A stretch of 64,000 nucleotides of DNA from Gemmatimonadaceae bacterium (GCA_039924785.1 JBDTAE010000164.1:4101-68100), one strand, 5' to 3'. Counted from the stretch's first letter, positions 28,643 through 52,496 are shown. Program-made: numbers and translations. Notes: generated by a model from the sequence alone, not told the origin.

Positions 28643-29863
28643 TCAGGCGAAGACCTCGAGTGCATGTTCCACTCCGGCAACGAGCGCGTCGACGTCGGCC
28701 GGCGTGTTATAGATGTAGAATGACGCACGAGCAGTCGCGACCACATTCAATCGGCGCATGAGCGGCTGCGCGCAGTGGTGTCCCGCGCGCACGCACACAC
28801 CGGCTTCGTCCAGGATCGTCGCGACGTCGTGCGGGTGAATTTCACCCACCGTAAAACTGGCGACGCCACTGCGTTCCGTCGAGGCCGGCCCGTGCACTTT
28901 CACGCCAGGCAACGACGAAAGCCGCTGCGACGCGAGCGCCGTGAGCGCTTGCTCATGACGACGAACGTTCGCCATCCCGATTCGATCGAGATACTGGCAG
29001 GCTGCGGCCAATCCCACCGCGTCGGCGACATTCGGCGTGCCCGCTTCGAACTTGTGCGGCAACACATTCCACGACGTTCGCTCGTCGCCGACGAATTCGA
29101 TCATGTCGCCGCCGGTCTGATACGGTGGCATAGTCTCGAGCAGCGCGCGCGTCCCAACAAGCACGCCGCAGCCCATCGGACCGAGCATCTTATGCCCGCT
29201 GAATGCGTAGAAATCCACGTCGAGCGAATCGATATTCAACGGCAGATGCGGCGCAGCCTGAGCTCCGTCACACACGACGACCGCTCCAACCCTTCGCGCA
29301 ATTGCGCTGAGTTCGGCGATAGGATTGATCGTGCCGAGCGCGTTGGAAACATGCCCGAACGCGACGAGCTTCGTGTGAATGCCAACAATCGACGAAAACT
29401 TGTCGACGTCAATACGACCTTCGGGCGTGATGTCGCAAATGCGCAGCACAGCGCCCGTTTCGCGAGCAATCTGCTGCCACGGGACGAAGTTGGCATGGTG
29501 CTCGAGCCCGGTCACCACGATTTCGTCGCCCGCACCGAGGTTCGCGCGCCCCCACGCCGCTGCAACGAGATTCAAAGACTCGGTCGTTCCACGTGTGAAG
29601 ATCAACCGCGCCGAATCCTTCACGCCAACGAACTTCGCGACCGTTTCGCGGGCCTCGTGATACCGCTCCGTTGCGCGCGCGGATAGCGCGTATGCGCCGC
29701 GATGCGGGTTCGCATTGTCGTGCGTGTAGTAGCGTATCATCGCATCGAGCACCGCCCGCGGCTTCTGGCTCGTCGCAGCGGAGTCGAGATAGTGCAAACC
29801 AAGATTCGCCGCGAGCAGCGGAAAATCCTGGATTGAAACCAGATCTATCGTGGCATTGGTCAT
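28643..29863 (-). CDS. sufS: Cysteine desulfurase SufS
   Basis: YLDSAATSQKP, PLP-lysine block FSGHKMLGPMG, catalytic Cys in RAGHHCAQP. The ATG at 29863 has GGAGG 4-5 nt upstream. An ATG at 29899 is also open but overlaps sufU. Confidence 0.9.
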   Translation of the reverse strand: MTNATIDLVSIQDFPLLAANLGLHYLDSAATSQKPRAVLDAMIRYYTHDNANPHRGAYALSARATERYHEARETVAKFVGVKDSARLIFTRGTTESLNLVAAAWGRANLGAGDEIVVTGLEHHANFVPWQQIARETGAVLRICDITPEGRIDVDKFSSIVGIHTKLVAFGHVSNALGTINPIAELSAIARRVGAVVVCDGAQAAPHLPLNIDSLDVDFYAFSGHKMLGPMGCGVLVGTRALLETMPPYQTGGDMIEFVGDERTSWNVLPHKFEAGTPNVADAVGLAAACQYLDRIGMANVRRHEQALTALASQRLSSLPGVKVHGPASTERSGVASFTVGEIHPHDVATILDEAGVCVRAGHHCAQPLMRRLNVVATARASFYIYNTPADVDALVAGVEHALEVFA

Positions 29864-29889
29864 CCCGCCTCCGATCGTAGACGCGCCAG

Positions 29890-30381
29890 TCACGCCCACG
29901 CGCCTTCGCCCGGCGCCCCGGTTGGATCGCTGGTCTCGGTTACGATGCGATCGTCACCATCGAGCGCGGACTTGAGCGCATGCCACGCCATGCTCGCGCA
30001 TTTTACGCGCTGCGGGAAACGGGCGACGCCACCGAAGGCACGAAGAGAGCCGAGGGATTTTTGTTCGTCTTCCGGAAGCGTGCCCTTGACGAGATTGTGA
30101 AACTTCTCGAAGACCGCAGCCGCCTCAGCGCGGGTCTTCCCCTTGACCGCCGTCGTCATGATCGACGCGGACGATTTAGAGATTGCGCATCCCTCGCCTT
30201 TGAAGCTGACGTCGGCGATCCTGTCGTCGTCGCCCCACTTCACCCACAAGGTGAGCGCGTCGCCGCACATCGGATTGCGACCCTGCACCGTGCGATCAGC
30301 ATCCGGCATCTCCCGGAAATTGCGCGGTTTCCGGTTGTGCTCGAGGATGATCTCCTGGTAAAGCGCCTCGGTGTCGCTCAC
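29890..30381 (-). CDS. sufU: SufU (NifU/IscU-like) Fe-S sulfur-transfer/scaffold protein
   Basis: GTG start. NPMCGD, GEGCAISKSSAS, RVKCASMAW cysteine ligands. Confidence 0.85.
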   Translation of the reverse strand: MSDTEALYQEIILEHNRKPRNFREMPDADRTVQGRNPMCGDALTLWVKWGDDDRIADVSFKGEGCAISKSSASIMTTAVKGKTRAEAAAVFEKFHNLVKGTLPEDEQKSLGSLRAFGGVARFPQRVKCASMAWHALKSALDGDDRIVTETSDPTGAPGEGAWA

Positions 30382-30400
30382 GATGCCGTGGCCCCGAACA

Positions 30401-31717
30401 TCACACGAATCGGTCGAGCGTCATTTCTTCGAGACCCTCGCGAACCGCGTCGACCTCGAGCGTCTCCAGCACGTCGGCACAGAACGCATACGTCAGCAAC
30501 CGCCGCGCGAGCGCATTCCCGATTCCTCGGCTCTCCAGGTAAAACAGCGCCGTGCGATCGATCTGGCCAACGGTCGCGCCGTGCGTGCACTTCACGTCGT
30601 CCGCGAAGATCTCGAGCTGCGGCTTGGTGTCGATGTGCGCCGTCTCGGACAGCAGCAGGGTGTTGTTCGTCTGCTTGCCGTCGGTCTTCTGCGCGATCGG
30701 ATGCACGTAGACCTTGCCGTTGAACACACCGTGCGACTTTCCGTCGAGCACGCCCTTGTACAACTCTCGGCTGAACGTGTTCGGCTGCGCGTGCACGACA
30801 CGCGTCTGATGGTCGCAATGCTGATCGCCGTCGAGCATATAGAGTCCGTTCAGCGTAGTGCCGGATCCTGCGCCGTCGAGCGTTGTGTACACGTTGGTGC
30901 GCGACAACGCCGCGCCGAGCGCCAGCGAGAACGAAATGAAGTGGCTGTCTTTCGCTTGGGCTGCCTCAACCGTCGCCACGTGAAACGCGTTCTCGCTCTC
31001 CCGCTGCACTTTGTAGTGCCGAAGTGTCGCACCATCGGCGACCGCGACTTCGGTCACCGCGTTCGTGAAGTACGACGCGTCGCCGAGCGACACGTAGCTC
31101 TCGATCACGGTCGCTTTCGCGTTGCGGCCCACCAGAATCAGGTTGCGCGGGTGCATCATCCCGTTCGCCGCCGCCGCGTCGGTGACGAAGAGAATGTGAA
31201 TCGGTGTCTCGACGTCGACGTCCTTCCCGATCTGCAGCACCGCGCCGTCGTGCATAAACGCGGCATTCAACGCCGTGAAGGCTGCGTCGTCGTAGCTCGT
31301 GATCCGACCCACACGGTCGACGACATGGGGCGCGTCGGTCCACGACGATGCGAGATCTCTAACCAAAACACCTTTGGGCAGCGCAGAAACGTTCGAAAGC
31401 GACGGCGAGAATTGGCCGTTTACGAAGACCATGGTGTGCCAATCAGTCGCGCCGAAGCCAAATTGCGCGAGCTGTTCCATGGTCACCGACGGTGCACCGC
31501 CGCCATCGAGCAGCGAAAACTCCCGATCGGCGATCGCCGCCGGACTCGTATAGTGCCAGTCCTCGTTCTTCGTGGTGGGGAAGCCGAGCGCGCTGAATCG
31601 CTCGAACGCCGCGCGGCGCATCGACTGCACCCACGAGGGTGCGCCGTTCCCCGCACGCTCGTCGAACGCCGACACGTACGAATCCATTGCCGAGTCAGGA
31701 GCAACCGACGTCGTCAC
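30401..31717 (-). CDS. sufD: Fe-S cluster assembly protein SufD
   Basis: 438 aa. GTG start overlaps the sufC stop (GTGA). C-terminal beta-helix blocks (...KPQLEIFADDVKCTHGATVGQID...LFYLESRGI). Confidence 0.9.
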   Translation of the reverse strand: MTTSVAPDSAMDSYVSAFDERAGNGAPSWVQSMRRAAFERFSALGFPTTKNEDWHYTSPAAIADREFSLLDGGGAPSVTMEQLAQFGFGATDWHTMVFVNGQFSPSLSNVSALPKGVLVRDLASSWTDAPHVVDRVGRITSYDDAAFTALNAAFMHDGAVLQIGKDVDVETPIHILFVTDAAAANGMMHPRNLILVGRNAKATVIESYVSLGDASYFTNAVTEVAVADGATLRHYKVQRESENAFHVATVEAAQAKDSHFISFSLALGAALSRTNVYTTLDGAGSGTTLNGLYMLDGDQHCDHQTRVVHAQPNTFSRELYKGVLDGKSHGVFNGKVYVHPIAQKTDGKQTNNTLLLSETAHIDTKPQLEIFADDVKCTHGATVGQIDRTALFYLESRGIGNALARRLLTYAFCADVLETLEVDAVREGLEEMTLDRFV

Positions 31718-32490
31718 GCCCCGGCTCCAACCGCCGCCTGCGCCGGCGACGTGACCCAGTCGTACCCTTTCTCCTCGAGCTCCAGCGCCAACTTCTTGCC
31801 GCCCGACTTCACGATGCGCCCGCCGACCAGCACGTGCACGAAATCCGGGACGATGTAATTGAGCAAACGCTGATAGTGCGTGACGACGATCGTCGCGTTG
31901 TCGGGCCGCTTGAGCGCGTTTACGCCGTCGGCGACGATCCGCAACGCGTCGATGTCGAGGCCGGAGTCGGTCTCGTCGAGAATCGCCAACCTGGGCGACA
32001 ACACCGCCATCTGAAGAATTTCATTGCGCTTTTTTTCACCACCGGAGAAGCCGGCGTTCACCGAGCGCGTGAGCATGGCCGAATCCATCTCGACGAGCTT
32101 GAGCTTCTCTTCCATGATGTCGGCAAACTCGAGCGGGTCGATCTCCTCATCGCCGTGCGCTTTGCGGATCTCGTTGTACGCCGCGCGCAGAAAATACGCG
32201 TTCGACACACCGGGAATCTCGACGGGATACTGAAACGCGAGGAACACGCCCTTCTGGGCGCGCACCTCCGCCGCCATCGCAAGCAAGTCGTTGCCGTCGT
32301 ACGACACTGACCCGCCGGTGACCTCGTACGCCGGGTTGCCCGCGAGCACCTGGGCCAGCGTGCTCTTGCCGGAACCGTTCGGACCCATGACCGCGTGCAC
32401 TTCGCCCGCATTCACGGTGAGACTCAAGCCCTTCAAGATTGCTTTATCCGCGACAGTCGCGCGAAGCTCGTTGATTTCTAATAGTGACAT
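31714..32490 (-). CDS. sufC: Fe-S cluster assembly ATPase SufC
   Basis: ATG at 32490. GPNGSGKST, GFSGGEKKRNEI, LAILDETDSGLD. Confidence 0.95.
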   Translation of the reverse strand: MSLLEINELRATVADKAILKGLSLTVNAGEVHAVMGPNGSGKSTLAQVLAGNPAYEVTGGSVSYDGNDLLAMAAEVRAQKGVFLAFQYPVEIPGVSNAYFLRAAYNEIRKAHGDEEIDPLEFADIMEEKLKLVEMDSAMLTRSVNAGFSGGEKKRNEILQMAVLSPRLAILDETDSGLDIDALRIVADGVNALKRPDNATIVVTHYQRLLNYIVPDFVHVLVGGRIVKSGGKKLALELEEKGYDWVTSPAQAAVGAGA

Positions 32491-32494
32491 TGAA

Positions 32495-33928
32495 TTATCC
32501 GACGCTTCCCTCGAGCGTGATTCCGAGCAGCGCCTGAGCCTCGAGCGCAAACTCCATCGGAAGCTCCTTGAACACTTCCTTGCAGAACCCACTCACGATC
32601 ATCGACACGGCCTGTTCCGCGCTGAGACCGCGCTGCTTCAAATAGAAAATCTGGTCTTCACCGATCTTCGACGTCGACGCCTCATGCTCGACGATCGCCG
32701 TGTTGTTCCCGACCTCGATGTACGGGAACGTGTGCGCGCCGCAGCGATTGCCGACCAGCATCGAATCACACTGCGTGTAATTCCGCGCACCGCTCGCTTT
32801 CGGCAGCACGTGCACGCGGCCGCGATATGAATTCTGTCCCTCACCCGCCGAAATGCCCTTGCTGACGATCGTCGATCGCGTGTTGCGACCGATGTGAATC
32901 ATCTTCGTGCCCGTGTCGGCCTGCTGCTTGTTGTTGACGACAGCCACGCTGTAGAACTCGCCAACCGCGTTGTCGCCTTGGAGAATCACGCTCGGATATT
33001 TCCACGTGATCGCGGAGCCGGTCTCGACCTGCGTCCACGAAATCTTCGCGTCTTCAGCGGCCTTGCCGCGCTTGGTGACGAAGTTGTAGATGCCGCCGTT
33101 GCCTTCCTTGTCGCCGGCATACCAGTTCTGCACGGTCGAGTACTTGATCGTCGCGCCCTTGAGCGCCACGAGCTCGACGACAGCCGCATGCAGTTGATTC
33201 GTGCTGCGCTTCGGCGCCGTGCAGCCCTCGAGGTAGCTGACGTACGAACCCTCGTCTGCGACGATGAGCGTTCTCTCAAACTGTCCGGTGTCCGCCGAAT
33301 TGATGCGGAAATACGTCGACAGCTCGATCGGGCAGCGCACGCCTTTCGGCACGTACACGAACGAACCGTCGGAGAAGACGGCGCTGTTCAACGCGGCGAA
33401 ATAGTTATCGCTATACGGCACCACGGAGCCGAGGTATTTCTCGACGAGCTCGGGGTGCTCGCGCAACGCTTCGCCGAACGAGCAGAAGATGATGCCGTAC
33501 TTCGACAGCTCGCTCCGCATCGTGGTGCCGACGGAGACCGAGTCGAAGATGGCGTCGACCGCGACCCCCGACAGCATCTTCTGTTCGAGAAGTGGAATGC
33601 CAAGCTTCTCATACGTCTTGAGAAGCTCCGGATCCACGTCGTCCAGGCTACCGAGCGGTTTGGCGGTTTTCGGCGCGGAGTAGTAGCTGATGCCCTGGTA
33701 GTCGATCGCCGGATACTTCACGTTCTGCCAATGCGGCTCCTTCATCGTCAGCCAGCGTCGATAGGCCTTGAGGCGCCACTCCACCATGAAGGCCGGCTCG
33801 GTCTTCTTCGCCGAAATCGCCCGAACGACGCTCTCGCTCAATCCGGGCGGAAACGTGTCCGACTCGATGTCGGTCACGAAGCCGTGCTGATACTCTCGGC
33901 TAATCAGGGTCTCGATCGAGCTACTCAT
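32495..33928 (-). CDS. sufB: Fe-S cluster assembly scaffold SufB
   Basis: 477 aa. Conserved SufB blocks (...YVPKGVRCP..., TWKYPS..L.G, KPQLEI-type, [20 protein letters not shown]). Confidence 0.95.
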
Positions 33929-34064
33929 GCGTCCAACTCTTTGGCCTTGAACCGGTTACCGGTCGGCGGAGACACCGCCGCCGCGCGATCCCGGCGAGAC
34001 TTCAGCCCGAGGATCCGCTAAGCAGATGAATTTAGTCGGGTTTAACCGGCAATGGCTAGTACCG

Positions 34065-34871
34065 CTACGGACTCGTGGTCCAATTGAGCAGATGCCACAT
34101 GTAGATGATGAAGCAGATGAACGCCAAAATGCCGACAATGACGATGAGCGGAACCGTCGCGCTTTCGGCATCCGCGCCGTCCTCATCCACGACCCATTCG
34201 GTGGCGATCGTCGGCTTTCTGGTCGTCTCGTCATTCTCGCCGGCATGCTCCGGCGCCACCTCGACGCCAGGCGGAAGCGGCGCGTGGGTGAATTCGAAAA
34301 TCGTAAATGCGATTTCGACCAGGTCCCCGTCGCGAAGGAGCGCGGGCTCCTTCATCAGACGACCATTCAACACGGTCCCAGCGGATCCCATGGAGTGCAG
34401 CGCGAAGCCGCCGGCTTCGCGCCGAATGTCCGCATGAAAACGCGATGCCGTTGGGTTCCGGATGACGATATCGTTCGACGCATCGCGCCCAATCGAAGTC
34501 GACCTATGGCTCAATGGATGAGCGACTCCGGCGCGTTCTTCGATCAGGTAGGCGTCCGCCACGCGCGTTGCCTCCGCCCCGATCACACGGGGAGACTTCT
34601 CGCTAAACACGAACCGGGCGATCCCCGCGGCAATGACGTCGCCGTCGACGAGAATACGAGGCTCGTTGTGAAGCTGCGTTGTGCCCACGACGACGACGCT
34701 CTCGTGCATGAACGGCCGCACCACAACACGATCCTCGACCACGTTGACCGCAAAATGGCGCGGCATCAGATCCGCCGTCTCGACGCGCCAGTTGGCCTCC
34801 GGCCCGCTGCCGACGACGGTTTCGCCCTCGCGTAGCTCGTACGTCAACGTGCCGACTGAAAGCCACGCCAT
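34065..34871 (-). CDS. Membrane-anchored double-FHA-domain protein
   Basis: The second domain has canonical FHA residues (IGRDASNDIVI..., ASRFHA, TVLNG, GDLVEI). The first domain is degenerate. C-terminal TM helix PLIVIVGILAFICFIIYMW. The ATG directly abuts the stop of the upstream FAD-subunit gene. Confidence 0.8.
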   Translation of the reverse strand: MAWLSVGTLTYELREGETVVGSGPEANWRVETADLMPRHFAVNVVEDRVVVRPFMHESVVVVGTTQLHNEPRILVDGDVIAAGIARFVFSEKSPRVIGAEATRVADAYLIEERAGVAHPLSHRSTSIGRDASNDIVIRNPTASRFHADIRREAGGFALHSMGSAGTVLNGRLMKEPALLRDGDLVEIAFTIFEFTHAPLPPGVEVAPEHAGENDETTRKPTIATEWVVDEDGADAESATVPLIVIVGILAFICFIIYMWHLLNWTTSP

Positions 34872-35876
34872 TTACGCGAGCTCCCGAATGACTTGCCGAA
34901 GCAGCGATCCCGCCAAGTCGACCTTGTACCCATTCTTCGACAACGGACGCGCGTCGTACAGCGCACGCTCGGCGAGCGTCTCGATGACGTCGTCGTCCAA
35001 GCCCCCCGACGACACGTCCTCTTCGATCGAGGTGTTCACGCGCCATGGGCGCGGCGCCACACCGCCCATGACGATTCTCACATCGCCGTTTTGTCGCTTG
35101 CAGCCGGCGATGCTGACGAGCGCAAAATCCCAGGCCTCGCGCTGCATGAGTTTGTGATAGTGCTGGGCTCCACCCGCCGCAGCCACCGGAAGAATCACCG
35201 CCGAGACGAATTCATCCTGCTCGAGAACCGTTTCGCGGTCGGCCCGGTGGCCCGGCAGAATATAAAATTCACTCATTGGAACACGCTGGAGGCGGTTCAT
35301 TGAAGCAATCTCGACCACCGCGTCAACTGCCGCCAGAGCAACGGCAGGGTCCGACGGATGCACGGCGTAGCATGGACCGCCGTCGAGGATCGCGAGATAT
35401 TGGTTCTCGCCGGCAAACGCGGGGCACGAAATGCCCCCGCTCTTGAGACACGACACACCACGCCGGAAGTACCAGCATCGTGGACGCTGGCACAGATTGC
35501 CGCCCAGCGTCCCGCTGTTGCGAAGCGCCGGCGTGCCGACCGCATCGCAGGCCTGCGCAAGAACGCCGAATCGTTCACGGATCAGTTGATTGCGCGCGAG
35601 CGCGGCAAGGCTCACGGAGGCGTCAATGCGAACGCTCCCATCGGCCAGCTCGGTGATCGTTCCCCCCGCGCCATTCGGGATGCCGCGCAGATCAACGAGT
35701 GTTTGCGGCCGAACGATTTCTTCGGCAATCGATACGAGCAAGTCCGTTCCGCCGCCGAGTGCAACGGCGCCGGGCTCGGCAAGATGCCGAGCCGCGTCGT
35801 CGCTCGAAACTGCCCGGTGGTAAGAGAATGGAGTTGTCACGGAGATAAAAAAGGCGAGACCGGTCGGTCCCGCCAT
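34872..35876 (-). CDS. FAD-binding subunit (CoxM/XdhB-like) of a xanthine dehydrogenase-family molybdenum hydroxylase
   Basis: FSYHRAVS..., GGGTDLL, RNSGTLGGNL FAD_binding_5 motifs plus a CO-dehydrogenase flavoprotein C-terminal domain. The start is uncertain (ATG 35876 or GTG 35840). Confidence 0.85.
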   Translation of the reverse strand: MAGPTGLAFFISVTTPFSYHRAVSSDDAARHLAEPGAVALGGGTDLLVSIAEEIVRPQTLVDLRGIPNGAGGTITELADGSVRIDASVSLAALARNQLIRERFGVLAQACDAVGTPALRNSGTLGGNLCQRPRCWYFRRGVSCLKSGGISCPAFAGENQYLAILDGGPCYAVHPSDPAVALAAVDAVVEIASMNRLQRVPMSEFYILPGHRADRETVLEQDEFVSAVILPVAAAGGAQHYHKLMQREAWDFALVSIAGCKRQNGDVRIVMGGVAPRPWRVNTSIEEDVSSGGLDDDVIETLAERALYDARPLSKNGYKVDLAGSLLRQVIRELA

Positions 35877-35929
35877 AGCGTTTTAATCGATTCTTACGAA
35901 TCCGCCCTTGCGAGCTCGGACGAGCGCTC

Positions 35930-36109
35930 CTACTTGACCATGCCGCCCGAGCCGCCGACCCACGATACGTCAGTGGGATTCTTGTAGGACTTGTTGTGGA
36001 TGTAGGTCGCGGTAGCTATGCAGACGGCGGCGAGGAATATGACGAAGGTCGCGAATCCCCACCCGCCATTCGTATCTGCTCGAACGAAACGATCCTTGTG
36101 CGGCGCCAT
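35930..36109 (-). CDS. Small single-pass membrane protein, hypothetical
   Basis: 59 aa from the ATG at 36109, with AAGGAA upstream. One TM helix (WGFATFVIFLAAVCIATATYI). Heads the minus-strand run leading to the FAD subunit and the FHA gene. Confidence 0.45.
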   Translation of the reverse strand: MAPHKDRFVRADTNGGWGFATFVIFLAAVCIATATYIHNKSYKNPTDVSWVGGSGGMVK

Positions 36110-36296
36110 CGAGATTCCTTTGAGTCTTTTTTGAAACGAGCGGTGTACTGGACCGCGACGACGGGAATATAGCAGACACTGATATCGTCGGGAATACGTA
36201 TAGAAATCGTGTTTTCGACAACCATTGATTCCCTGGCATTGTCTCAGTGGTGACCGGGCCACACGACGGGGCGCCGGCGGCTTCAACGCATTTGAC

Positions 36297-38747
36297 GTGA
36301 CTGTTCTCCGAGACGAACTGCAGCGTACGCTGGGCAGCGCCTACACCCTCGAGCGGGAGCTGGGAGGTGGAGGGATGTCGACGGTGTTCGTCGCCCGAGA
36401 CACCGCGCTCGGGCGTGCAGTAGTAGTAAAGGTTTTGCCGTACGAGCTTGCGGCTTCCGTCTCCGTTGACCGGTTCAAACGTGAGATCATGCTGTCAGCA
36501 GCGCTACAGCATCCGCACATCGTGCCAGTCTTGAGCGCCGGCGAGGCTGACGGACTGCCTTTCTTCATCATGCCCTTCGTCGAGGGTGAGTCGCTCAGGG
36601 CCAGGCTCGCCCGCGGGCCGCTCTCCGTTCGAGAGGCCGTCAGCATTCTCAAAGACGTCGCCCGCGCGCTCGTATACGCACACGGTCGAGGCATCATCCA
36701 TCGCGACATCAAACCCGACAACATCCTCCTTTCGGGAGGATCCGCCACGGTCACCGACTTTGGCGTCGCCAAGGCCGTCGCCGTATCGCGCGGACGAGAA
36801 CGCCTATCCGCTCCCGGACACTCCGGCACCATTACGATGGTTGGGACGTCTATCGGAACACCGGCATACATGGCCCCAGAGCAAGCCGCCGGCGATCCGA
36901 ACACCGACCAGCGCGCCGACCTCTACGCGCTCGGCATTGTCGGATACGAGATGTTGGTCGGAACACCACCCTTCCACGGACGCGCGCCGCAGCAACTGCT
37001 CGCCGCGCAACTCACCGAGCCACCGCCGCCGATCGGCTCGCGCCGATACGACGTCCCGCAGGCGCTCTCCGCGCTGATCATGAAGCTGCTCGAGAAAGAC
37101 CCGGGCAACCGACCGCGCCAGGCCGCCGACGTCGCCCGAACGCTCGAAGATCCCACCGTCGTCAGCGGAACCTACGCGTCCGCGACGATGCCTCGCGCCA
37201 CCAAGCCGAAACGCGTGTTGTGGGCACTGGCCGGCGCTGGAATTCTCGCGTCGATCGCCGCAGGCGGGGCCTGGTTCAACAATCGAAAAGCCGAACCGAC
37301 CAATCCCGGCGCGGACGGCGTTCCCGCCCTGGCGGTCGCATCGACCAAATCGATCGCCGTGATGTCGCTCGTGAATCTCAGCCGCGATACGAGTGACGCC
37401 TACTTCGCCGCGGGCATGACCGCCGAGGTGTCGAGTGCGCTGAGCCGAATTCCGGGACTGCGCGTTGCAACGAACGATCGCAATGCAACCGATCAACCGA
37501 CCAGCCCCGCGGAAATCGGAAAGGCGCTGAACGTCAATATGGTGTTGATGGGCACCGTGCAGCGCGACAAGACGCGGCTGCGCGTCACCGCCCGCCTCGT
37601 GAACACGTCGGACGGCTTCACCGTATGGTCGGACATGTTCGAGCGGGAGGCGAAAGACGTGTTCGCCGTGCAGGATGAGATCTCGAATGCGATCATCGCC
37701 GCGATTTCGCCCGAGCTCACCACCGCACCGGCGGTGGCCTCCACCGCCGCGGCGGAGAATCACGGAACGAACGATCTTCAAGCGTACGACCTCTATCTTC
37801 GCGGCCACTACTTCTTTGAGCGGCGCGGTGAAACGGGCCTTCGTCGCGCGCTCGACTATTACGAGCAAGCGTCGCGCAAAGACTCGATGTTCGCGCGCGC
37901 GTACGCAGGAATCGCGAATGTCTACGCACTCCTGCCGCTCTACGCGAACCTTCGGATCGACTCGGTAATGCCGGTCGCCTTGGTCGCGGCAAATCACGCG
38001 GTACGACTCGACAGCACGCTCGCCGACGCGTTCGCGGCTCGCGCGTCGTTGCTGCAGGCAGACTGGAAGTTTGCCGACGCCGAGCGAGACTACCTCCGCG
38101 CGTTGAAGCTCGATCCGAATTCGGCGGCGATCCATCAGTGGTACGGTGAGCTGCTGCTCTTGAACGGCCGCATGCGCGATGCGCAGATGCAGCTTCGCCG
38201 CGCAACGGAGCTCGATCGACTGTCGCCGATCGCCTTCGGATCGTACGGACTTGGACTGGCCGCGAGTCGGCGCTCCGATTCGGCGATCGTAGCCGCAAAG
38301 CGGGCCGTCGAGCTCGACTCTACGCTCGTCGTCGCCCGGTTCATGCTCGGCAGCGTGTACCTCGAAGCGGGCAAACTGCCGGAAGCCACGGCACAACTCG
38401 AGGCGGCCGCAGCGCTGGACTCCGGCTCCGTTCCGACGATGAGTCTGTTGGGATACGCATATGCGAAGGCGGGCAATCCGACACACGCGTCGGAGATCGC
38501 AAGATCGCTCGAAACGAGTATTGGCAAGACCAGCGGTGCGGCTGCGGCGGCCGCACGCGTTTACATCGGACTTGGCGATTTGACGCGCGCGCAGTCCTTG
38601 CTTGAACGCGCGGCGGCGGATCACGACGTATTTTTCTCCAGCGAATCCCTGGTCGAGGGTTTTTTCGATCCGATTCGGGGTACGCCATGGTTCGCGGCGC
38701 TGGTGAAACGGGTTGGCCTCGATGATCGCGTGACGTTAAAACAGTAG
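36297..38747 (+). CDS. Ser/Thr protein kinase with TM segment and C-terminal TPR region (paralog of 5073-8162)
   Basis: GGGGMSTVF, HRDIKPDNILL, TDFGVAK, YMAPEQ, then TPR repeats. GTG 36297 is chosen by alignment with the paralog N-terminus (MELRDQLES... vs VTVLRDELQ...). The open frame begins at TTG 36225. Confidence 0.85.
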   Translation: MTVLRDELQRTLGSAYTLERELGGGGMSTVFVARDTALGRAVVVKVLPYELAASVSVDRFKREIMLSAALQHPHIVPVLSAGEADGLPFFIMPFVEGESLRARLARGPLSVREAVSILKDVARALVYAHGRGIIHRDIKPDNILLSGGSATVTDFGVAKAVAVSRGRERLSAPGHSGTITMVGTSIGTPAYMAPEQAAGDPNTDQRADLYALGIVGYEMLVGTPPFHGRAPQQLLAAQLTEPPPPIGSRRYDVPQALSALIMKLLEKDPGNRPRQAADVARTLEDPTVVSGTYASATMPRATKPKRVLWALAGAGILASIAAGGAWFNNRKAEPTNPGADGVPALAVASTKSIAVMSLVNLSRDTSDAYFAAGMTAEVSSALSRIPGLRVATNDRNATDQPTSPAEIGKALNVNMVLMGTVQRDKTRLRVTARLVNTSDGFTVWSDMFEREAKDVFAVQDEISNAIIAAISPELTTAPAVASTAAAENHGTNDLQAYDLYLRGHYFFERRGETGLRRALDYYEQASRKDSMFARAYAGIANVYALLPLYANLRIDSVMPVALVAANHAVRLDSTLADAFAARASLLQADWKFADAERDYLRALKLDPNSAAIHQWYGELLLLNGRMRDAQMQLRRATELDRLSPIAFGSYGLGLAASRRSDSAIVAAKRAVELDSTLVVARFMLGSVYLEAGKLPEATAQLEAAAALDSGSVPTMSLLGYAYAKAGNPTHASEIARSLETSIGKTSGAAAAAARVYIGLGDLTRAQSLLERAAADHDVFFSSESLVEGFFDPIRGTPWFAALVKRVGLDDRVTLKQ

Positions 38748-49422: not shown

Positions 49423-49686
49423 TTACTTCTGCGGCTTGCCTGGCGGCGTCGGGCTCTTGAAGACGTCGCGATTGATCTGGATGTACTTCGCCTGCGCGCT
49501 CGGCACGTCTTCTTCAGGGAAGATTGCCGTTACGGGGCACTCGGGCTCACACGCGCCGCAATCGATACATTCGTCCGGGTGAATAAAAAGCTGATCCGGA
49601 CCTTCATATATACAGTCGACCGGGCAAACGTCGACGCAAGCGCGGTCCTTCGTTCCAATGCAAGCTTCGGTTATTACGTAAGGCAT
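49423..49686 (-). CDS. Ferredoxin (FdxA-like, 3Fe-4S/4Fe-4S type)
   Basis: 87 aa. [17 protein letters not shown] and [12 protein letters not shown] cysteine clusters. Confidence 0.9.
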
Positions 49687-49738
49687 GCGTACCTCATGGT
49701 ATCCTGCGATTTGAAGTCTCCCGAGCTAAGATAGTTCC

Positions 49739-50203
49739 ATGCGTCTCATCGTCAACGGACGCCCGCACGACGTCGTCGCCCCGGATCATGAGACGCTGCT
49801 TCTCACCCTGCGCGAGCGCCTCGGATTGACGGGCACGAAGCTGGTTTGCGGCCGCGGCGAATGCGGCGCCTGTACCGTGCTCCTCGACGGTGACTCCGCG
49901 TACGCATGCCTGACGCTGACGGCCGCCTGCGCCGAGCAGAAAATCACCACGATCGAAGGCATTTCGATCGAAGGCAAGCTACATCCGATGCAGGCCGCAT
50001 TCTTCGAACACGACGCGCTGCAATGCGGTTTCTGCACGCCGGGTCAGATTCTGGCGGCGATTGCGCTGTTGTCACAAAGCCCGAATCCCACCGAAGACGA
50101 CGTGCTCTACGGCATGTCGGGCAACATCTGTCGGTGCGGTGCCTATCCGAAAATCCTCCGCGCCGTGCTGGCCGCCGCCGAGGGAGTGCGGGACAATGGC
50201 TAG
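49739..50203 (+). CDS. (2Fe-2S)-binding small subunit of a xanthine dehydrogenase-family molybdenum hydroxylase
   Basis: CGRGECGACTV, CLT, QCGFCTPG, CRCGAY cluster motifs. Confidence 0.9.
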   Translation: MRLIVNGRPHDVVAPDHETLLLTLRERLGLTGTKLVCGRGECGACTVLLDGDSAYACLTLTAACAEQKITTIEGISIEGKLHPMQAAFFEHDALQCGFCTPGQILAAIALLSQSPNPTEDDVLYGMSGNICRCGAYPKILRAVLAAAEGVRDNG

Positions 50204-52496
50204 GCGCTTCGTCACCACCAAAGTCGAGATCGAAGGGCGCGAGGAGACGAAAATCGTCGAGCTCCCGTCGCGCAATCCGGAGCCGTGGGGCGACGACGCC
50301 GTGCTGCACGTCGTTGGCCAGCGAACGCTACGGGCAGACGCGCTCGAGAAAGTTACCGGAACCGCACGCTACACCGCTGACGTTCAACGGCCGGGAATGC
50401 TTCACGCCGCGATTCTTCGCGCGCCTGTCGCATCGGGTCGCGTGACGAAGCTCGATCTCGCTCCCGCGCTCGCGATCGACGGCGTGCGCGGCGCGGTGAC
50501 GTTCGGCGATGTACCGGGGGTGAAGATCGACGGCGTTCCATTGATGGATCGCACGATTCACTACGCGGGCCAACCGGTCGCGGCCCTCTGCGCCGATTCG
50601 ATTGACCTTGCGTATCGCGCGCTGCAGTCGATCGTGATCGAGATCGACGAAACGACGCCGGTGCTCACGGCTGATGCCGCGCTCGAGGAAGGCTCTCCGC
50701 TCGTGTGGCCGCACGGCAACAAGCACCGCGCGTCGCCGCGAGTGTCCGTTCGCGGCGACGTCGACGCGGGGCTTCGCGACGCGGATGTCGTCGTGACTCG
50801 CGAATATCGCACCCCGGTCGCGCTGCATTCCGCGCTTGAGCCGCACGGTGCGGTCGCCGATTGGTCGGGCGGACGGCTTACGGTCTACGAGTCGACGCAA
50901 GGCATTTTCATGACGCGTCGCGAGGTCGCAAAAGCGTTCAACGTGCCGCACTCGTCGGTCGTCGTGATTTGCCAATACATGGGCGGCGGCTTCGGTGCGA
51001 AGAACGGCGCGCCGGCGTCGACGTACATCGCCGCGTCGCTCGCGAAACAGAGTGGCCGTCCGGTGCGCTGCATTCTCGACCGAGAAGGCGAACAGACCGA
51101 TGCCGGCAATCGCACGTCGACGTTCCAGCGCGTCACGATCGGTGCCAAGAACGACGGCACCCTCACCGCCATTTCCGTCGATGCCACGATTCCCCTCGGC
51201 GTCGGCGGCTGGCTCGCGAGTCCCGGAAAGATCTATCACGAGCTCTATCAGTGCGCGAATGTACGCAGCAGCGAGATGTTCGTGTTCACGAACACTGCGC
51301 CGATGGCGAGCTTCCGCGCGCCTGGCCACGTCGAGGGCGCCTTCGGTCTCGAGCGAACGATGGATGTCGTCGCGCGTGAGATCGGATTGGATCCGCTCGA
51401 GTTGCGTCGTCGCAACTACGCGACGCGCGACCAAGACAAGGATCGTGAATATTCTCATAAGATGCTCGAAGCGTGTTACGATCAGGGCGCCGAGCGATTC
51501 GGGTGGAATGCAGCGCGCGGGGCGCCGGCGGCCGACGGGCGCGTGCGCCGTGGCGTGGGCATGGCGTCGCTCGTGTGGGGCGCCGGCGGCGGTCCGCCCG
51601 CGTATGCAACGGTGCGCGTCAATCGCGACGGTACGGTCGACGTGCTGACCGGCGCGCAGGACCTCGGCACCGGGGCTCGCACGGTCCTCGCGCAGATCGC
51701 CGCCGAAACGCTCGGCGCAAACCCGGCGGACGTGCGCACGATTCTCGGCGACACCGAGCGTTTGCCGTTCGCGTCGAACTCGTGGGGGTCGATCACGACG
51801 GCGTCGGTCGGACCGGCGGTTCGCGTCGCGGCCGAAGAAGCGCGCGACTCACTGATCGAGGCCGCGGCGGAAATGATGAACGTCGACGCGAGCGATCTCG
51901 AATCAAAGAACAGTAAAATTCACGCTCGCACCACCGACAAATGCATGCTCTTCAAGGACGTGTGCGAAAAGCTCGGCGACGTGATGATCATCGGACAGGG
52001 CAGCCGCGGTCCGAATCCAGAGAACACCGCGCTCGCCGCATTCGGCGCGCAATTCGCAGAGGTCGAGGTCGACACGGAGACGGGACGCGTGCGCGTGCTG
52101 CGAATCGTATCGGCGCACGATTCGGGGCGCATCATCAATCCGACACTGGCCGAGAGTCAGCTCGAGGGCGGGGTCATTCAAGGACTTGGATATGCGTTAT
52201 TTGAAGAACGCGTCATCGACCCACGGTCCGGCGTCACGCTGAACGCGTCGCTGCACGACTACAAGGTGCCGCTCCTTCCCGACGTTCCCGAGATCGACGC
52301 GTTCTTCGTGAACGGCGCGGACACCGTCGCGAACCACACCGGAGCAAAGGGACTCGCCGAGCCACCGATCATTGGGACCGCGCCCGCGATCGCGAACGCC
52401 GTCGCACACGCGCTCGGCATCGACGTCGACGAAATTCCGTTGACGCCGTGGCGGGTCTTGCGGCAAGCGCGCGGAGATGAAAGTTACGCTCGCTAG
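50196..52496 (+). CDS. Molybdopterin-binding large subunit of a xanthine dehydrogenase-family hydroxylase
   Basis: ATG at 50196 overlaps the small-subunit stop. 766 aa. GTARYTAD, GGGFG, ...AHDSGRIINP..., GLAEPPI conserved blocks. Confidence 0.9.
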   Translation: MARRFVTTKVEIEGREETKIVELPSRNPEPWGDDAVLHVVGQRTLRADALEKVTGTARYTADVQRPGMLHAAILRAPVASGRVTKLDLAPALAIDGVRGAVTFGDVPGVKIDGVPLMDRTIHYAGQPVAALCADSIDLAYRALQSIVIEIDETTPVLTADAALEEGSPLVWPHGNKHRASPRVSVRGDVDAGLRDADVVVTREYRTPVALHSALEPHGAVADWSGGRLTVYESTQGIFMTRREVAKAFNVPHSSVVVICQYMGGGFGAKNGAPASTYIAASLAKQSGRPVRCILDREGEQTDAGNRTSTFQRVTIGAKNDGTLTAISVDATIPLGVGGWLASPGKIYHELYQCANVRSSEMFVFTNTAPMASFRAPGHVEGAFGLERTMDVVAREIGLDPLELRRRNYATRDQDKDREYSHKMLEACYDQGAERFGWNAARGAPAADGRVRRGVGMASLVWGAGGGPPAYATVRVNRDGTVDVLTGAQDLGTGARTVLAQIAAETLGANPADVRTILGDTERLPFASNSWGSITTASVGPAVRVAAEEARDSLIEAAAEMMNVDASDLESKNSKIHARTTDKCMLFKDVCEKLGDVMIIGQGSRGPNPENTALAAFGAQFAEVEVDTETGRVRVLRIVSAHDSGRIINPTLAESQLEGGVIQGLGYALFEERVIDPRSGVTLNASLHDYKVPLLPDVPEIDAFFVNGADTVANHTGAKGLAEPPIIGTAPAIANAVAHALGIDVDEIPLTPWRVLRQARGDESYAR

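What the first reader, a model, noticed from the sequence alone, without database searches (positions are those of the whole stretch)
34065..38747. Ser/Thr kinase divergent from a mini-operon coupling a redox flavoprotein subunit to a membrane FHA protein
On the minus strand, a 59-aa membrane protein gene is followed by the FAD subunit of a molybdenum hydroxylase. That stop codon (34872-34874) is directly followed by the ATG (34871) of a double-FHA, C-terminally membrane-anchored protein, with zero-nt spacing. This implies co-transcription and probably coupled translation. Across a 115-nt (TTG 36225) to 187-nt (GTG 36297) gap, divergently, sits a TPR Ser/Thr kinase. FHA domains read phospho-threonine, so the arrangement suggests kinase-dependent control or membrane tethering of the hydroxylase through its flavoprotein subunit. 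I am not aware of this being described for xanthine dehydrogenase-family enzymes.
Basis: inference. Interest (0 to 1): 0.6.

Follow-up and report, generated by a model that had tools for sequence, protein, structure and literature searches.

The report
Membrane FHA gene coupled to flavoprotein

Summary

- **What is there.** On the minus strand a 59-aa membrane protein gene (TM59), a PaoB/HcrB-type FAD subunit gene and a tail-anchored double-FHA gene lie upstream of sufBCDS. FAD and FHA join as TAAATG. A TPR Ser/Thr kinase gene diverges from TM59.
- **Corrections.** The FAD gene most likely starts at GTG 35840, not ATG 35876. A conserved terminator-like hairpin separates TM59 from FAD. Only the second FHA domain keeps the phospho-threonine pocket.
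- **The adjacency is not unique.** Both genes were located in 40 of 251 Gemmatimonadaceae genomes, and in 39 of those FHA lies co-oriented just downstream of FAD. In 14 loci examined closely the junctions were -4 to +31 nt.
- **The two genes do not co-occur.** FHA was found in 129 genomes and FAD in 109, but both in only 42 (56 expected). 87 FHA-bearing genomes have neither the FAD nor the Moco ortholog.
- **Other neighbours.** FHA's constant neighbour is sufB. The kinase's constant neighbour is TM59.
- **A likely phospho-site.** The FHA family has an invariant Thr221 in a disordered linker next to the membrane anchor.

Best reading: a GarA/Rv1747-like membrane phospho-switch, co-expressed with the hydroxylase subunit here through inherited gene order. 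Dedicated kinase control of the hydroxylase is unlikely (about 15%). Interest is moderate.

The parts
35930..36109 (-). TM59: a 59-aa single-pass membrane protein with no Pfam or NCBIfam hit. Conserved motifs are DR[YH]vPa.TN.GWG at the N-terminus and hK.TY[KR]hPTD.TW after the helix.
   Evidence: Alignment of 36 orthologues. It is always divergent from the kinase when the kinase is present.
35841..35874 (-). Conserved intrinsic-terminator-like hairpin (GGCGGGACC-N4-GGTCTCGCC, then T6) between TM59 and the FAD gene. It ends 6 nt before GTG 35840.
   Evidence: scan; an equivalent hairpin plus T-run occurs in about 20 related loci, with stem and loop substitutions, and the reading frame from the ATG is not conserved.
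34872..35840 (-). FAD-binding medium subunit of a xanthine-oxidase-family molybdenum hydroxylase, PaoB/HcrB subgroup, carrying the Cys insert that binds an extra [4Fe-4S].
   Evidence: PF00941 1.4e-34 and PF03450 1.6e-08. Best NCBIfam hit is 4-hydroxybenzoyl-CoA reductase beta. Best PDB hits are PaoB 5G5G_B 3.9e-42, 5Y6Q_B and HcrB 1RM6_B, with Cys134/143/151/169 aligned to PaoB cysteines. It is the only PF00941 gene in the genome.
34065..34871 (-). Tail-anchored double-FHA protein. FHA1 (residues 1-95) is degenerate. FHA2 (105-200) has a canonical pThr pocket (G128, R129, S143, R144, H146). A disordered linker carries the invariant Thr221. The TM helix spans 242-266.
   Evidence: Pfam. (37-sequence alignment with invariant columns). 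(AF2 pLDDT 86, linker below 50). (closest folds are GarA, OdhI, EmbR and FhaA FHA domains).
34025..34041 (-). Operator- or promoter-like motif ACCCGACTAAATTCATC between the FHA stop and sufB. It is unique in the genome and conserved upstream of sufB in same-genus loci with and without the FHA gene.
28643..33928 (-). sufB (32495-33928), sufC (31714-32592), sufD (30401-31717) and sufS (28643-29899): the Fe-S assembly operon and the constant downstream neighbour of the FHA gene across the family.
   Evidence: Distances between FHA and sufB.
36297..38747 (+). Hanks-type Ser/Thr kinase with a TM segment, a TolB/FlgO-like region and a TPR sensor domain. The start is probably GTG 36297 (alternative TTG 36225).
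   Evidence: Orthologues align from about residue 19-25. The genome has 38 Pkinase hits.
49423..52496 (.). Partner genes of the FAD subunit: a 4Fe-4S ferredoxin (49423-49686, minus), the 2x[2Fe-2S] small subunit (49739-50203, plus; no Tat leader) and the Moco large subunit (50196-52496, plus).
   Evidence: The Moco orthologue co-occurs with the FAD orthologue in 72 of 76 genomes.

Best explanation
The locus is an inherited Gemmatimonadaceae gene block.

**The hydroxylase.** An ancestral FeS-Moco-FAD operon for a cytoplasmic PaoABC/4-hydroxybenzoyl-CoA-reductase-type molybdenum hydroxylase was split. Its FAD/[4Fe-4S] subunit gene now sits upstream of sufBCDS.

**The FHA gene.** Between FAD and sufB lies a gene for a family-specific, tail-anchored FHA protein. 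In this genome FAD and FHA are made from one transcript with coupled translation. The junction is shown; the coupling is inferred.

**How the FHA protein most likely works (inferred).** It is a membrane-tethered phospho-switch of the GarA/OdhI or Rv1747 kind.
1. One or more of about 35 Hanks kinases phosphorylate the invariant Thr221 in its disordered linker.
2. The competent FHA2 pocket binds this pThr, in cis or between molecules.
3. That binding changes which partner is held at the membrane.
4. The degenerate FHA1 is a phospho-independent interaction surface.

**Its partner.** The partner is not specifically the hydroxylase, because most genomes with this FHA protein have no hydroxylase. 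The divergent kinase is paired by gene order with TM59, not with FHA or FAD.
For: **Split operon**
- Outside the family, the closest FAD homologues (35-42% identity) lie in contiguous FeS-Moco-FAD operons.
- Inside the family, FAD and Moco are never within 1.5 kb of each other (0 of 49 same-contig genomes), yet 45 of 49 lie within 12 kb.
- Moco tracks FAD in 72 of 76 genomes.
- In several genera a MocA/PucB-type cofactor gene sits between FAD and FHA.

**Coupling**
- The junction is TAAATG with an SD-like GGGAG 9 nt upstream.
- Junctions of -4 to +31 nt occur in 14 loci.
- FHA lies directly downstream of FAD in 39 of 40 genomes.

**Independence from the hydroxylase**
- The FHA x FAD table is 42 / 87 / 67 / 55, odds ratio 0.40.
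- All 20 FHA-only loci examined have FHA next to sufBCD. The nearest upstream ORFs listed are mostly on the opposite strand.
- In 61 of 67 genomes FHA lies within 12 kb of sufB on the same contig, and none is further away on the same contig.

**Phospho-switch features**
- G128, R129, S143, R144, H146 and T221 are invariant in 37 sequences, including the single-FHA forms.
- The linker is disordered in the AF2 model.
- The best sequence and fold matches are GarA, OdhI, EmbR and FhaA.
- Precedents: unphosphorylated OdhI/GarA bind enzymes and are released by phosphorylation (PMC9769921, PMC12321487). Rv1747 has two FHA domains with acceptor threonines in an unstructured linker (PMC8339232).

**Kinase**
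- Orthologues (at least 45% identity in the sensor half) were found only in a few genera. At this locus the kinase sits next to TM59 whether FAD, FHA or both are present.
Against: - Where FAD and FHA coexist, the junction is kept extremely tight across genera. Overlapping stop and start codons suggest selection for co-expression, and perhaps for stoichiometry.
- FHA genes are also interleaved with hydroxylase-related genes: FAD-FHA-MocA-FHA in one genome and MocA-FHA in three others.
- The presence/absence statistics are not corrected for phylogeny.
- FHA detection used an E-value cut-off of 1e-12, so divergent copies could be missed.
- No phosphorylation, binding or expression data exist.
- Phosphorylation of Thr221 is inferred from conservation alone.
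Confidence: 0.5

Rival explanations
1. The divergent kinase phosphorylates a Thr on the FAD subunit or on TM59. The co-translated FHA protein reads it and tethers or regulates the hydroxylase at the membrane, for example to route electrons from its FAD/[4Fe-4S] subunit to a membrane acceptor.
For: - Conserved FAD-FHA stop/start coupling and 39 of 40 positional conservation.
- The hydroxylase is cytoplasmic: its small subunit has no Tat leader. It therefore shares a compartment with the FHA domains.
- PaoB/HcrB-type subunits carry an extra [4Fe-4S] used for external electron transfer (Unciuleac 2004, as cited in PMC3958847).
- GarA and OdhI show that FHA proteins can regulate metabolic enzymes (PMC9769921).
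Against: - 87 of 129 FHA-bearing genomes have no FAD or Moco orthologue, and 67 of 109 FAD-bearing genomes have no FHA.
- No S/T in FAD or TM59 is conserved specifically where FHA is present.
- The kinase is absent from FHA-bearing loci in several genera and present in FHA-less loci.
- A terminator-like hairpin separates TM59 from FAD.
Confidence: 0.15
2. The FHA protein belongs functionally with the suf operon. It would be a phospho-regulated membrane adaptor that modulates Fe-S cluster assembly or delivery, with the Fe-S-rich hydroxylase as one client.
For: - sufB is the one constant neighbour: 61 of 67 genomes within 12 kb, 40 within 1.5 kb upstream and 30 of those co-oriented.
- All 20 FHA-only loci have FHA beside sufBCD, mostly heading into it.
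- No terminator was detected between FHA and sufB in the window.
Against: - The whole region is syntenic family-wide. Moco lies within 30 kb of sufB in 31 of 32 genomes, so adjacency may be historical.
- A suf-specific operator-like motif lies between FHA and sufB and is present with or without FHA, which suggests separate control.
- 122 of 251 genomes have suf but no FHA hit.
- Insertions of 1-2 kb and inverted orientations between FHA and sufB are common.
- The held paper library contains nothing linking FHA domains to suf.
Confidence: 0.2
3. FHA, TM59, the kinase and the neighbouring M23 peptidase form an envelope or cell-division signalling module, in the manner of mycobacterial FhaB/FipA with PknA/B. 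The FAD gene would be a passenger.
For: - M23, the kinase (where present) and TM59 recur on the far side of the block in many genera.
- P0001 hits the NCBIfam FhaB/FipA model weakly (7.4e-08, below the cut-off).
- TM59 and FHA persist together without FAD in some genera: L042, L134-L136, L142 and L144.
Against: - Many FHA loci have no M23, kinase or TM59 within 5 kb.
- The TM anchor is C-terminal, whereas in FipA it is N-terminal.
- No other division or wall genes are in the block.
Confidence: 0.1

Closest known systems
GarA / OdhI (actinobacterial FHA regulators of TCA-cycle enzymes)
   Same: - A single competent FHA domain, which is the best sequence and fold match.
- A conserved threonine in a disordered extension, which could give a pThr-FHA switch.
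- A precedent for an FHA protein binding metabolic enzymes (PMC9769921, PMC12321487).
   Different: - GarA and OdhI are soluble and about 140-160 aa. Their acceptor ETTS motif is N-terminal, and they are restricted to Actinobacteria.
- This protein has an extra degenerate FHA domain. Its candidate acceptor Thr is C-terminal to the FHA domain, and it has a C-terminal membrane anchor.
- The NCBIfam OdhI score is 35 against a cut-off of 200.
Rv1747 regulatory module (M. tuberculosis ABC transporter with two FHA domains)
   Same: - Two FHA domains.
- Phospho-acceptor threonines in an unstructured linker.
- Attachment to a membrane protein, and phosphorylation by a Hanks kinase (PMC8339232; PDB hit 6CAH).
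   Different: - In Rv1747 the linker lies between the two FHA domains, and the module is fused to an ABC transporter.
- Here the linker follows FHA2, and the protein ends in a bare TM helix with no transporter.
FhaB/FipA (Rv0019c), a membrane-anchored single-FHA protein
   Same: A small FHA protein with one TM helix that is a substrate and partner of Hanks kinases.
   Different: - FipA has an N-terminal TM helix and a C-terminal FHA domain, and it lies in a division and wall gene cluster.
- The NCBIfam score is 32.6 against a cut-off of 125.
PaoABC (E. coli) and 4-hydroxybenzoyl-CoA reductase HcrABC (Thauera)
   Same: - The FAD subunit aligns end to end with PaoB and HcrB, including the Cys insert.
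- The small and large subunits also score best against the Xdh, Hcr and Pao models.
- A MocA-type MCD gene lies nearby in relatives.
- A ferredoxin gene is adjacent.
   Different: - The genes are split: FeS-Moco lies 14 kb from FAD here and is never contiguous with it in the family.
- There is no Tat leader, so the enzyme is cytoplasmic, unlike PaoABC.
- All NCBIfam scores are below the equivalog cut-offs, so the substrate is unknown.

Membership tests
Xanthine-oxidase-family FAD (medium) subunit, PaoB/HcrB subgroup | FAD_binding_5 (PF00941) plus CO_deh_flav_C (PF03450) domains | tested here: met
   119.8 bits (cut-off 27) and 35 bits (cut-off 25.5).
Xanthine-oxidase-family FAD (medium) subunit, PaoB/HcrB subgroup | Cysteine insert that ligates an additional [4Fe-4S] cluster | tested here: met
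   Cys134, 143, 151 and 169 align with cysteines of PaoB (5G5G_B). That these cysteines ligate a cluster in PaoB and HcrB rests on my own knowledge and on Unciuleac 2004 as cited in PMC3958847. It is not shown for this protein.
Xanthine-oxidase-family FAD (medium) subunit, PaoB/HcrB subgroup | Partner 2x[2Fe-2S] and Moco subunits encoded in the genome and co-inherited | tested here: met
   The Moco orthologue is found with the FAD orthologue in 72 of 76 genomes.
Xanthine-oxidase-family FAD (medium) subunit, PaoB/HcrB subgroup | Contiguous three-gene operon | tested here: not met
   The genes are 14 kb apart here. In 0 of 49 family genomes are FAD and Moco within 1.5 kb.
FHA domain (pThr-binding) | Conserved Gly-Arg, Ser-Arg-x-His and Asn-Gly pocket residues | tested here: met
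   In FHA2, G128, R129, S143, R144 and H146 are invariant. FHA1 does not meet this feature, having GS and PRH.
GarA/OdhI-type phospho-switch | Phospho-acceptor Thr in a disordered extension that binds the protein's own FHA domain | tested here: inconclusive
   T221 is invariant in a linker with pLDDT below 50. Phosphorylation and cis-binding cannot be tested with these tools.
GarA/OdhI-type phospho-switch | Equivalog-level sequence membership (NF041660) | tested here: not met
   35 bits against a cut-off of 200. The protein is also membrane-anchored and carries an extra FHA domain.
T6SS TagH/Fha (the name given to homologues by JGI) | TIGR03354 membership and a T6SS gene neighbourhood | tested here: not met
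   39.8 bits against a cut-off of 120.25. The neighbours are FAD, suf, a kinase and M23, with no T6SS genes.
Hanks-type Ser/Thr kinase | Pkinase catalytic domain | tested here: met
   PF00069 at 152.7 bits.

The most novel reading that the evidence does not exclude
A Gemmatimonadaceae-wide family of tail-anchored FHA phospho-switches with an invariant Thr221 is stationed at the head of the suf operon. It would couple Ser/Thr-kinase signalling to Fe-S cluster supply or to the maturation and membrane docking of Fe-S/Moco enzymes. The translationally coupled PaoB-like flavoprotein would be a direct client in the lineages that keep it.
Probability: 0.12. Interest if true: 0.65.

Novelty: new variant of a known kind. 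Interest (0 to 1): 0.36.

Why it matters
**If the FHA protein does bind the flavoprotein or the Suf machinery**
- It would be the first link between Hanks-kinase/FHA signalling and a xanthine-oxidase-family enzyme or Fe-S biogenesis.
- It would extend the GarA/OdhI principle of FHA proteins as enzyme regulators beyond Actinobacteria and to a membrane-anchored form.

**Even without that**
- The work defines an abundant, unnamed protein family with a clear candidate phospho-site: 433 homologues in public data, often mislabelled as a T6SS component.
- It also documents an anciently split molybdenum hydroxylase operon in a poorly studied soil phylum.

**As it stands**
- The central functional claim is not supported by the gene distribution, so the value lies mainly in a well-defined hypothesis and target list.

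Tried and rejected
- **Is the adjacency unique or due to chance?** Rejected: 39 of 40 genomes keep it.
- **Is FHA dedicated to the hydroxylase?** Rejected as an obligate link by presence/absence and by FHA-only loci.
- **S/T sites in FAD or TM59 conserved only where FHA is present.** None found.
- **Is FHA a T6SS (TagH) or T3SS (YscD) component, as JGI names and PF16697 suggest?** Rejected: scores are below the cut-offs and there is no secretion-system context.
- **Tandem-FHA similarity to the EssC N-terminus.** Foldseek aligns 215 columns but with an rmsd of 15.5 Å, so the arrangement is not the same.
- **ATG 35876 as the FAD start.** Rejected in favour of GTG 35840.
- **Is the FAD protein a Suf-associated flavoprotein and not a hydroxylase subunit?** Rejected, because it tracks the Moco orthologue and because outside homologues sit in FeS-Moco-FAD operons.
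- **Close-relative search with the FHA protein in genome contigs.** It found only an unrelated myxobacterial FHA.
- **Literature searches.** FHA with the suf operon, and FHA with xanthine dehydrogenase, returned nothing relevant.
- **The look-up of sequencing runs was closed.** No transcript evidence could be obtained.
- **Earlier notes of this scan.** No look-alike was found by sequence or by words.

Full report
**What is in the window**

The minus strand carries, in order:
- TM59 at 36109-35930, a 59-aa single-pass membrane protein with no family hit.
- A PF00941/PF03450 FAD-binding subunit gene ending at 34872.
- A 268-aa FHA protein gene at 34871-34065.
- After a 136-nt gap, sufB, sufC, sufD and sufS (33928-28643).

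The plus strand carries a kinase gene (TTG 36225 or GTG 36297 to 38747), built of a kinase domain, a TM segment and TPR repeats. An M23 peptidase gene follows.

The FAD stop and FHA start read TAAATG, with a GGGAG 9 nt upstream. GC content is uniform at about 0.60-0.65, so nothing suggests a foreign island. Titles of related records place the organism in Gemmatimonadaceae, as a metagenome-assembled genome.

**Corrections to the observation**

- *FAD start.* The ATG at 35876 lies inside a strong hairpin (9 bp, 7 GC) followed by T6. An equivalent hairpin plus T-run sits between TM59 and the FAD gene in about 20 related loci. Stem and loop vary, and the ATG-to-GTG frame is not maintained. Homologues align only from residue 9-16. 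The FAD gene therefore most likely starts at GTG 35840, and a terminator- or attenuator-like element separates TM59 from FAD. The tightly coupled unit is FAD-FHA, not TM59-FAD-FHA.
- *The hydroxylase is complete.* This is the only PF00941 gene in a 95%-complete genome. A 2x[2Fe-2S] gene and a Moco gene lie at 49739-52496 in the same window, next to a 4Fe-4S ferredoxin gene.
- *Enzyme type.* All three subunits score best against Xdh, 4-hydroxybenzoyl-CoA reductase and Pao models, all below the equivalog cut-offs. The small subunit lacks the PaoA Tat leader, so the enzyme is cytoplasmic. The FAD subunit aligns end to end with PaoB, a Methylobacillus aldehyde oxidase medium subunit and HcrB. Four cysteines match the PaoB insert.

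**Comparative genomics within the genus**

I examined 29 loci from the same genus and close genera.
- The order kinase <-> TM59-FAD-[slot]-sufBCDS is conserved.
- The slot holds the FHA gene in 8 same-genus genomes, 2 of them with single-FHA forms.
- In roughly ten genomes the FAD-sufB gap is only about 270 nt.
- In seven it is 1.3-2 kb. The ORFs read there in several of these are unrelated opposite-strand genes.
- In other genera:
  - FeS-Moco, <-M23, TM59, FAD, FHA and sufB occur with no kinase (L045, L098-L100).
  - TM59-FHA-sufB occurs with no FAD and no kinase (L042).
- Outside the family, the closest FAD homologues sit in contiguous FeS-Moco-FAD operons.

**Comparative genomics across the family**

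I searched a sample of 251 Gemmatimonadaceae genomes (scripts 26, 29, 42, 56).

| Gene | Threshold | Genomes with a hit |
|---|---|---|
| FHA family | E <= 1e-12 | 129 |
| FAD orthologue | E <= 1e-70 | 109 |
| Moco orthologue | E <= 1e-200 | 76 (72 also FAD-positive) |

- By the genome tables, FHA and FAD co-occur in 42 genomes against 56 expected (odds ratio 0.40, not corrected for phylogeny).
- 87 FHA-bearing genomes have neither FAD nor Moco. In the genome table, many of these are 95% or more complete.
- Match places were printed for both genes in 40 genomes. In 39 of them FHA is co-oriented directly downstream of FAD.
- In 14 loci examined closely the junctions were 0, -1, -4, 0, -4, 0, 0, -1, 31, -4, 13, 12, -4 and 23 nt.
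- In about a dozen genomes a gap of 600-690 nt separates the two. In the loci examined, the gap holds a MocA/PucB-type molybdenum-cofactor cytidylyltransferase gene.
- FHA lies within 12 kb of sufB in 61 of 67 genomes. The other six are on different contigs. It is within 1.5 kb upstream in 40.
- All 20 FHA-only loci fetched show FHA beside sufBCD, usually heading into it. The nearest upstream ORFs listed are mostly on the opposite strand.
- The whole block is syntenic. FAD and Moco are never contiguous (0 of 49) but lie within 12 kb in 45 of 49. Moco lies within 30 kb of sufB in 31 of 32.

**The kinase**

The genome has 38 Pkinase hits and 6 FHA-protein genes. Two other contigs carry Pkinase and FHA hits within about 200 nt of each other.

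Orthologues of this kinase's sensor half (at least 45% identity) occur in only about 21 of 251 genomes. At this locus the kinase is found:
- in the window's genus, where FAD is present in every locus examined and FHA in some;
- in a second genus where FHA is present and no FAD orthologue was found;
- in a third genus where FAD was found in all six genomes sampled and FHA in two of them.

In every fetched locus that has the kinase, it sits divergent from TM59. The kinase's constant partner by gene order is therefore TM59.

**The FHA protein itself**

- 433 homologues (E <= 1e-10) exist in public data. The 120 best listed are mostly about 255-270 aa and are named generically or as a 'T6SS component'.
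- A 37-sequence alignment that includes single-FHA forms has these invariant positions: L109, G128, R129, S143, R144, H146, G162, L179, D183 and T221.
- G128-R129, S143-R144 and H146 form the canonical pThr pocket of FHA2.
- T221 lies in the motif NDExxR[RK]PT[IL], about 20 residues after FHA2 and about 20 before the TM helix.
- FHA1 lacks the pocket Arg and Ser throughout the family.
- AlphaFold2 (mean pLDDT 86, pTM 0.72) gives two FHA sandwiches, a disordered linker (pLDDT below 50, including the T221 region) and a helix at 242-266.
- The best fold and sequence matches are EmbR, FhaA, GarA and OdhI FHA domains.
- No S/T of the FAD subunit or of TM59 is conserved specifically in FHA-bearing genomes.

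**Interpretation**

*Shown:*
- the gene order and the junction;
- the domain content;
- the conservation figures above.

*Inferred:*
- FAD and FHA are co-transcribed and translationally coupled here.
- T221 is a phospho-acceptor read by FHA2, as in GarA/OdhI (PMC9769921, PMC12321487) or the Rv1747 linker threonines (PMC8339232).
- The protein acts as a membrane-tethered phospho-switch.

The distribution argues that the switch is not dedicated to the hydroxylase. The FAD-FHA adjacency is best explained by common descent of a block in which a split hydroxylase operon and the FHA gene both sit upstream of suf.

Alternatives I cannot exclude, with rough probabilities:
- a lineage-specific partnership with the flavoprotein (about 15%);
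- a Suf-related role (about 20%);
- an envelope-signalling role with TM59, the kinase and M23 (about 10%).

A suf-specific motif (ACCCGACTAAATTCATC, unique in the genome) lies between FHA and sufB, whether or not FHA is present. This argues that suf has its own control.

**Novelty and limits**

Nothing in the held paper library links FHA domains to suf or to xanthine-oxidase-family enzymes. Earlier notes of this scan hold no look-alike.

The protein is a new architectural variant (double FHA, C-terminal acceptor linker, tail anchor) of known FHA phospho-switch adaptors.

Limits:
- The statistics are not corrected for phylogeny.
- Most genomes are metagenome-assembled.

Noticed in passing
window 35841-35874 (-); L036-L041 and L076-L092 between TM59 and FAD: A GC-rich hairpin plus T-run (GGCGGGACC-N4-GGTCCCGCC-T6) is conserved immediately upstream of the FAD GTG start in about 20 genomes, with stem and loop substitutions. 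It may be an intra-operon terminator or attenuator that sets the TM59:FAD-FHA expression ratio. No room is left for a separate FAD promoter.
   Followed up: partly
window 34025-34041 (-): The motif ACCCGACTAAATTCATC lies about 100 nt upstream of sufB and occurs once in the 4.9-Mb genome. It is conserved upstream of sufB in same-genus loci with or without the FHA gene. It is a candidate operator for an unidentified suf regulator of the Rrf2/IscR kind.
   Followed up: partly
L152:3115-3720, L153, L154-L157, L043, L138, L148: In several other Gemmatimonadaceae genera a MocA/PucB-type molybdenum-cofactor cytidylyltransferase gene sits between FAD and FHA, or directly upstream of FHA where FAD is missing. 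The window's genome has only a weak match (29% identity) on another contig (C292).
   Followed up: partly
L132, L133, L146, L150, L154, L157 (e.g. G165:C14:63886-65668): Some genera carry two or three paralogous tail-anchored FHA genes side by side upstream of sufB, often as a convergent pair. One genome (L157) has the order FAD, single-FHA, MocA, double-FHA.
   Followed up: no
L076 and L078, between TM59 and FAD; L079, L084, L092: Insertions of about 350 nt with very long inverted repeats built from CCGCGGAAT units (MITE-like, fold energy -167 to -229 kcal/mol) lie in this spacer, as do tandem GGTGGACC repeats.
   Followed up: no
window 49423-49686 (-): An 87-aa 2x[4Fe-4S] ferredoxin gene lies divergent from the FeS-Moco pair. 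It is a plausible electron partner of the [4Fe-4S]-bearing FAD subunit, as in 4-hydroxybenzoyl-CoA reductase.
   Followed up: partly
window 31714-32592 (-): The longest sufC ORF overlaps the sufB end by 98 nt. Distant relatives align only from about residue 35, so the true sufC start is probably further downstream.
   Followed up: no
L083 and L086 (kinase hits cover only residues 8-495): In two same-genus genomes the orthologous kinase appears to lack its TPR sensor half. In L079 and L082 many genes of the block show frame breaks, which are probably assembly errors.
   Followed up: no
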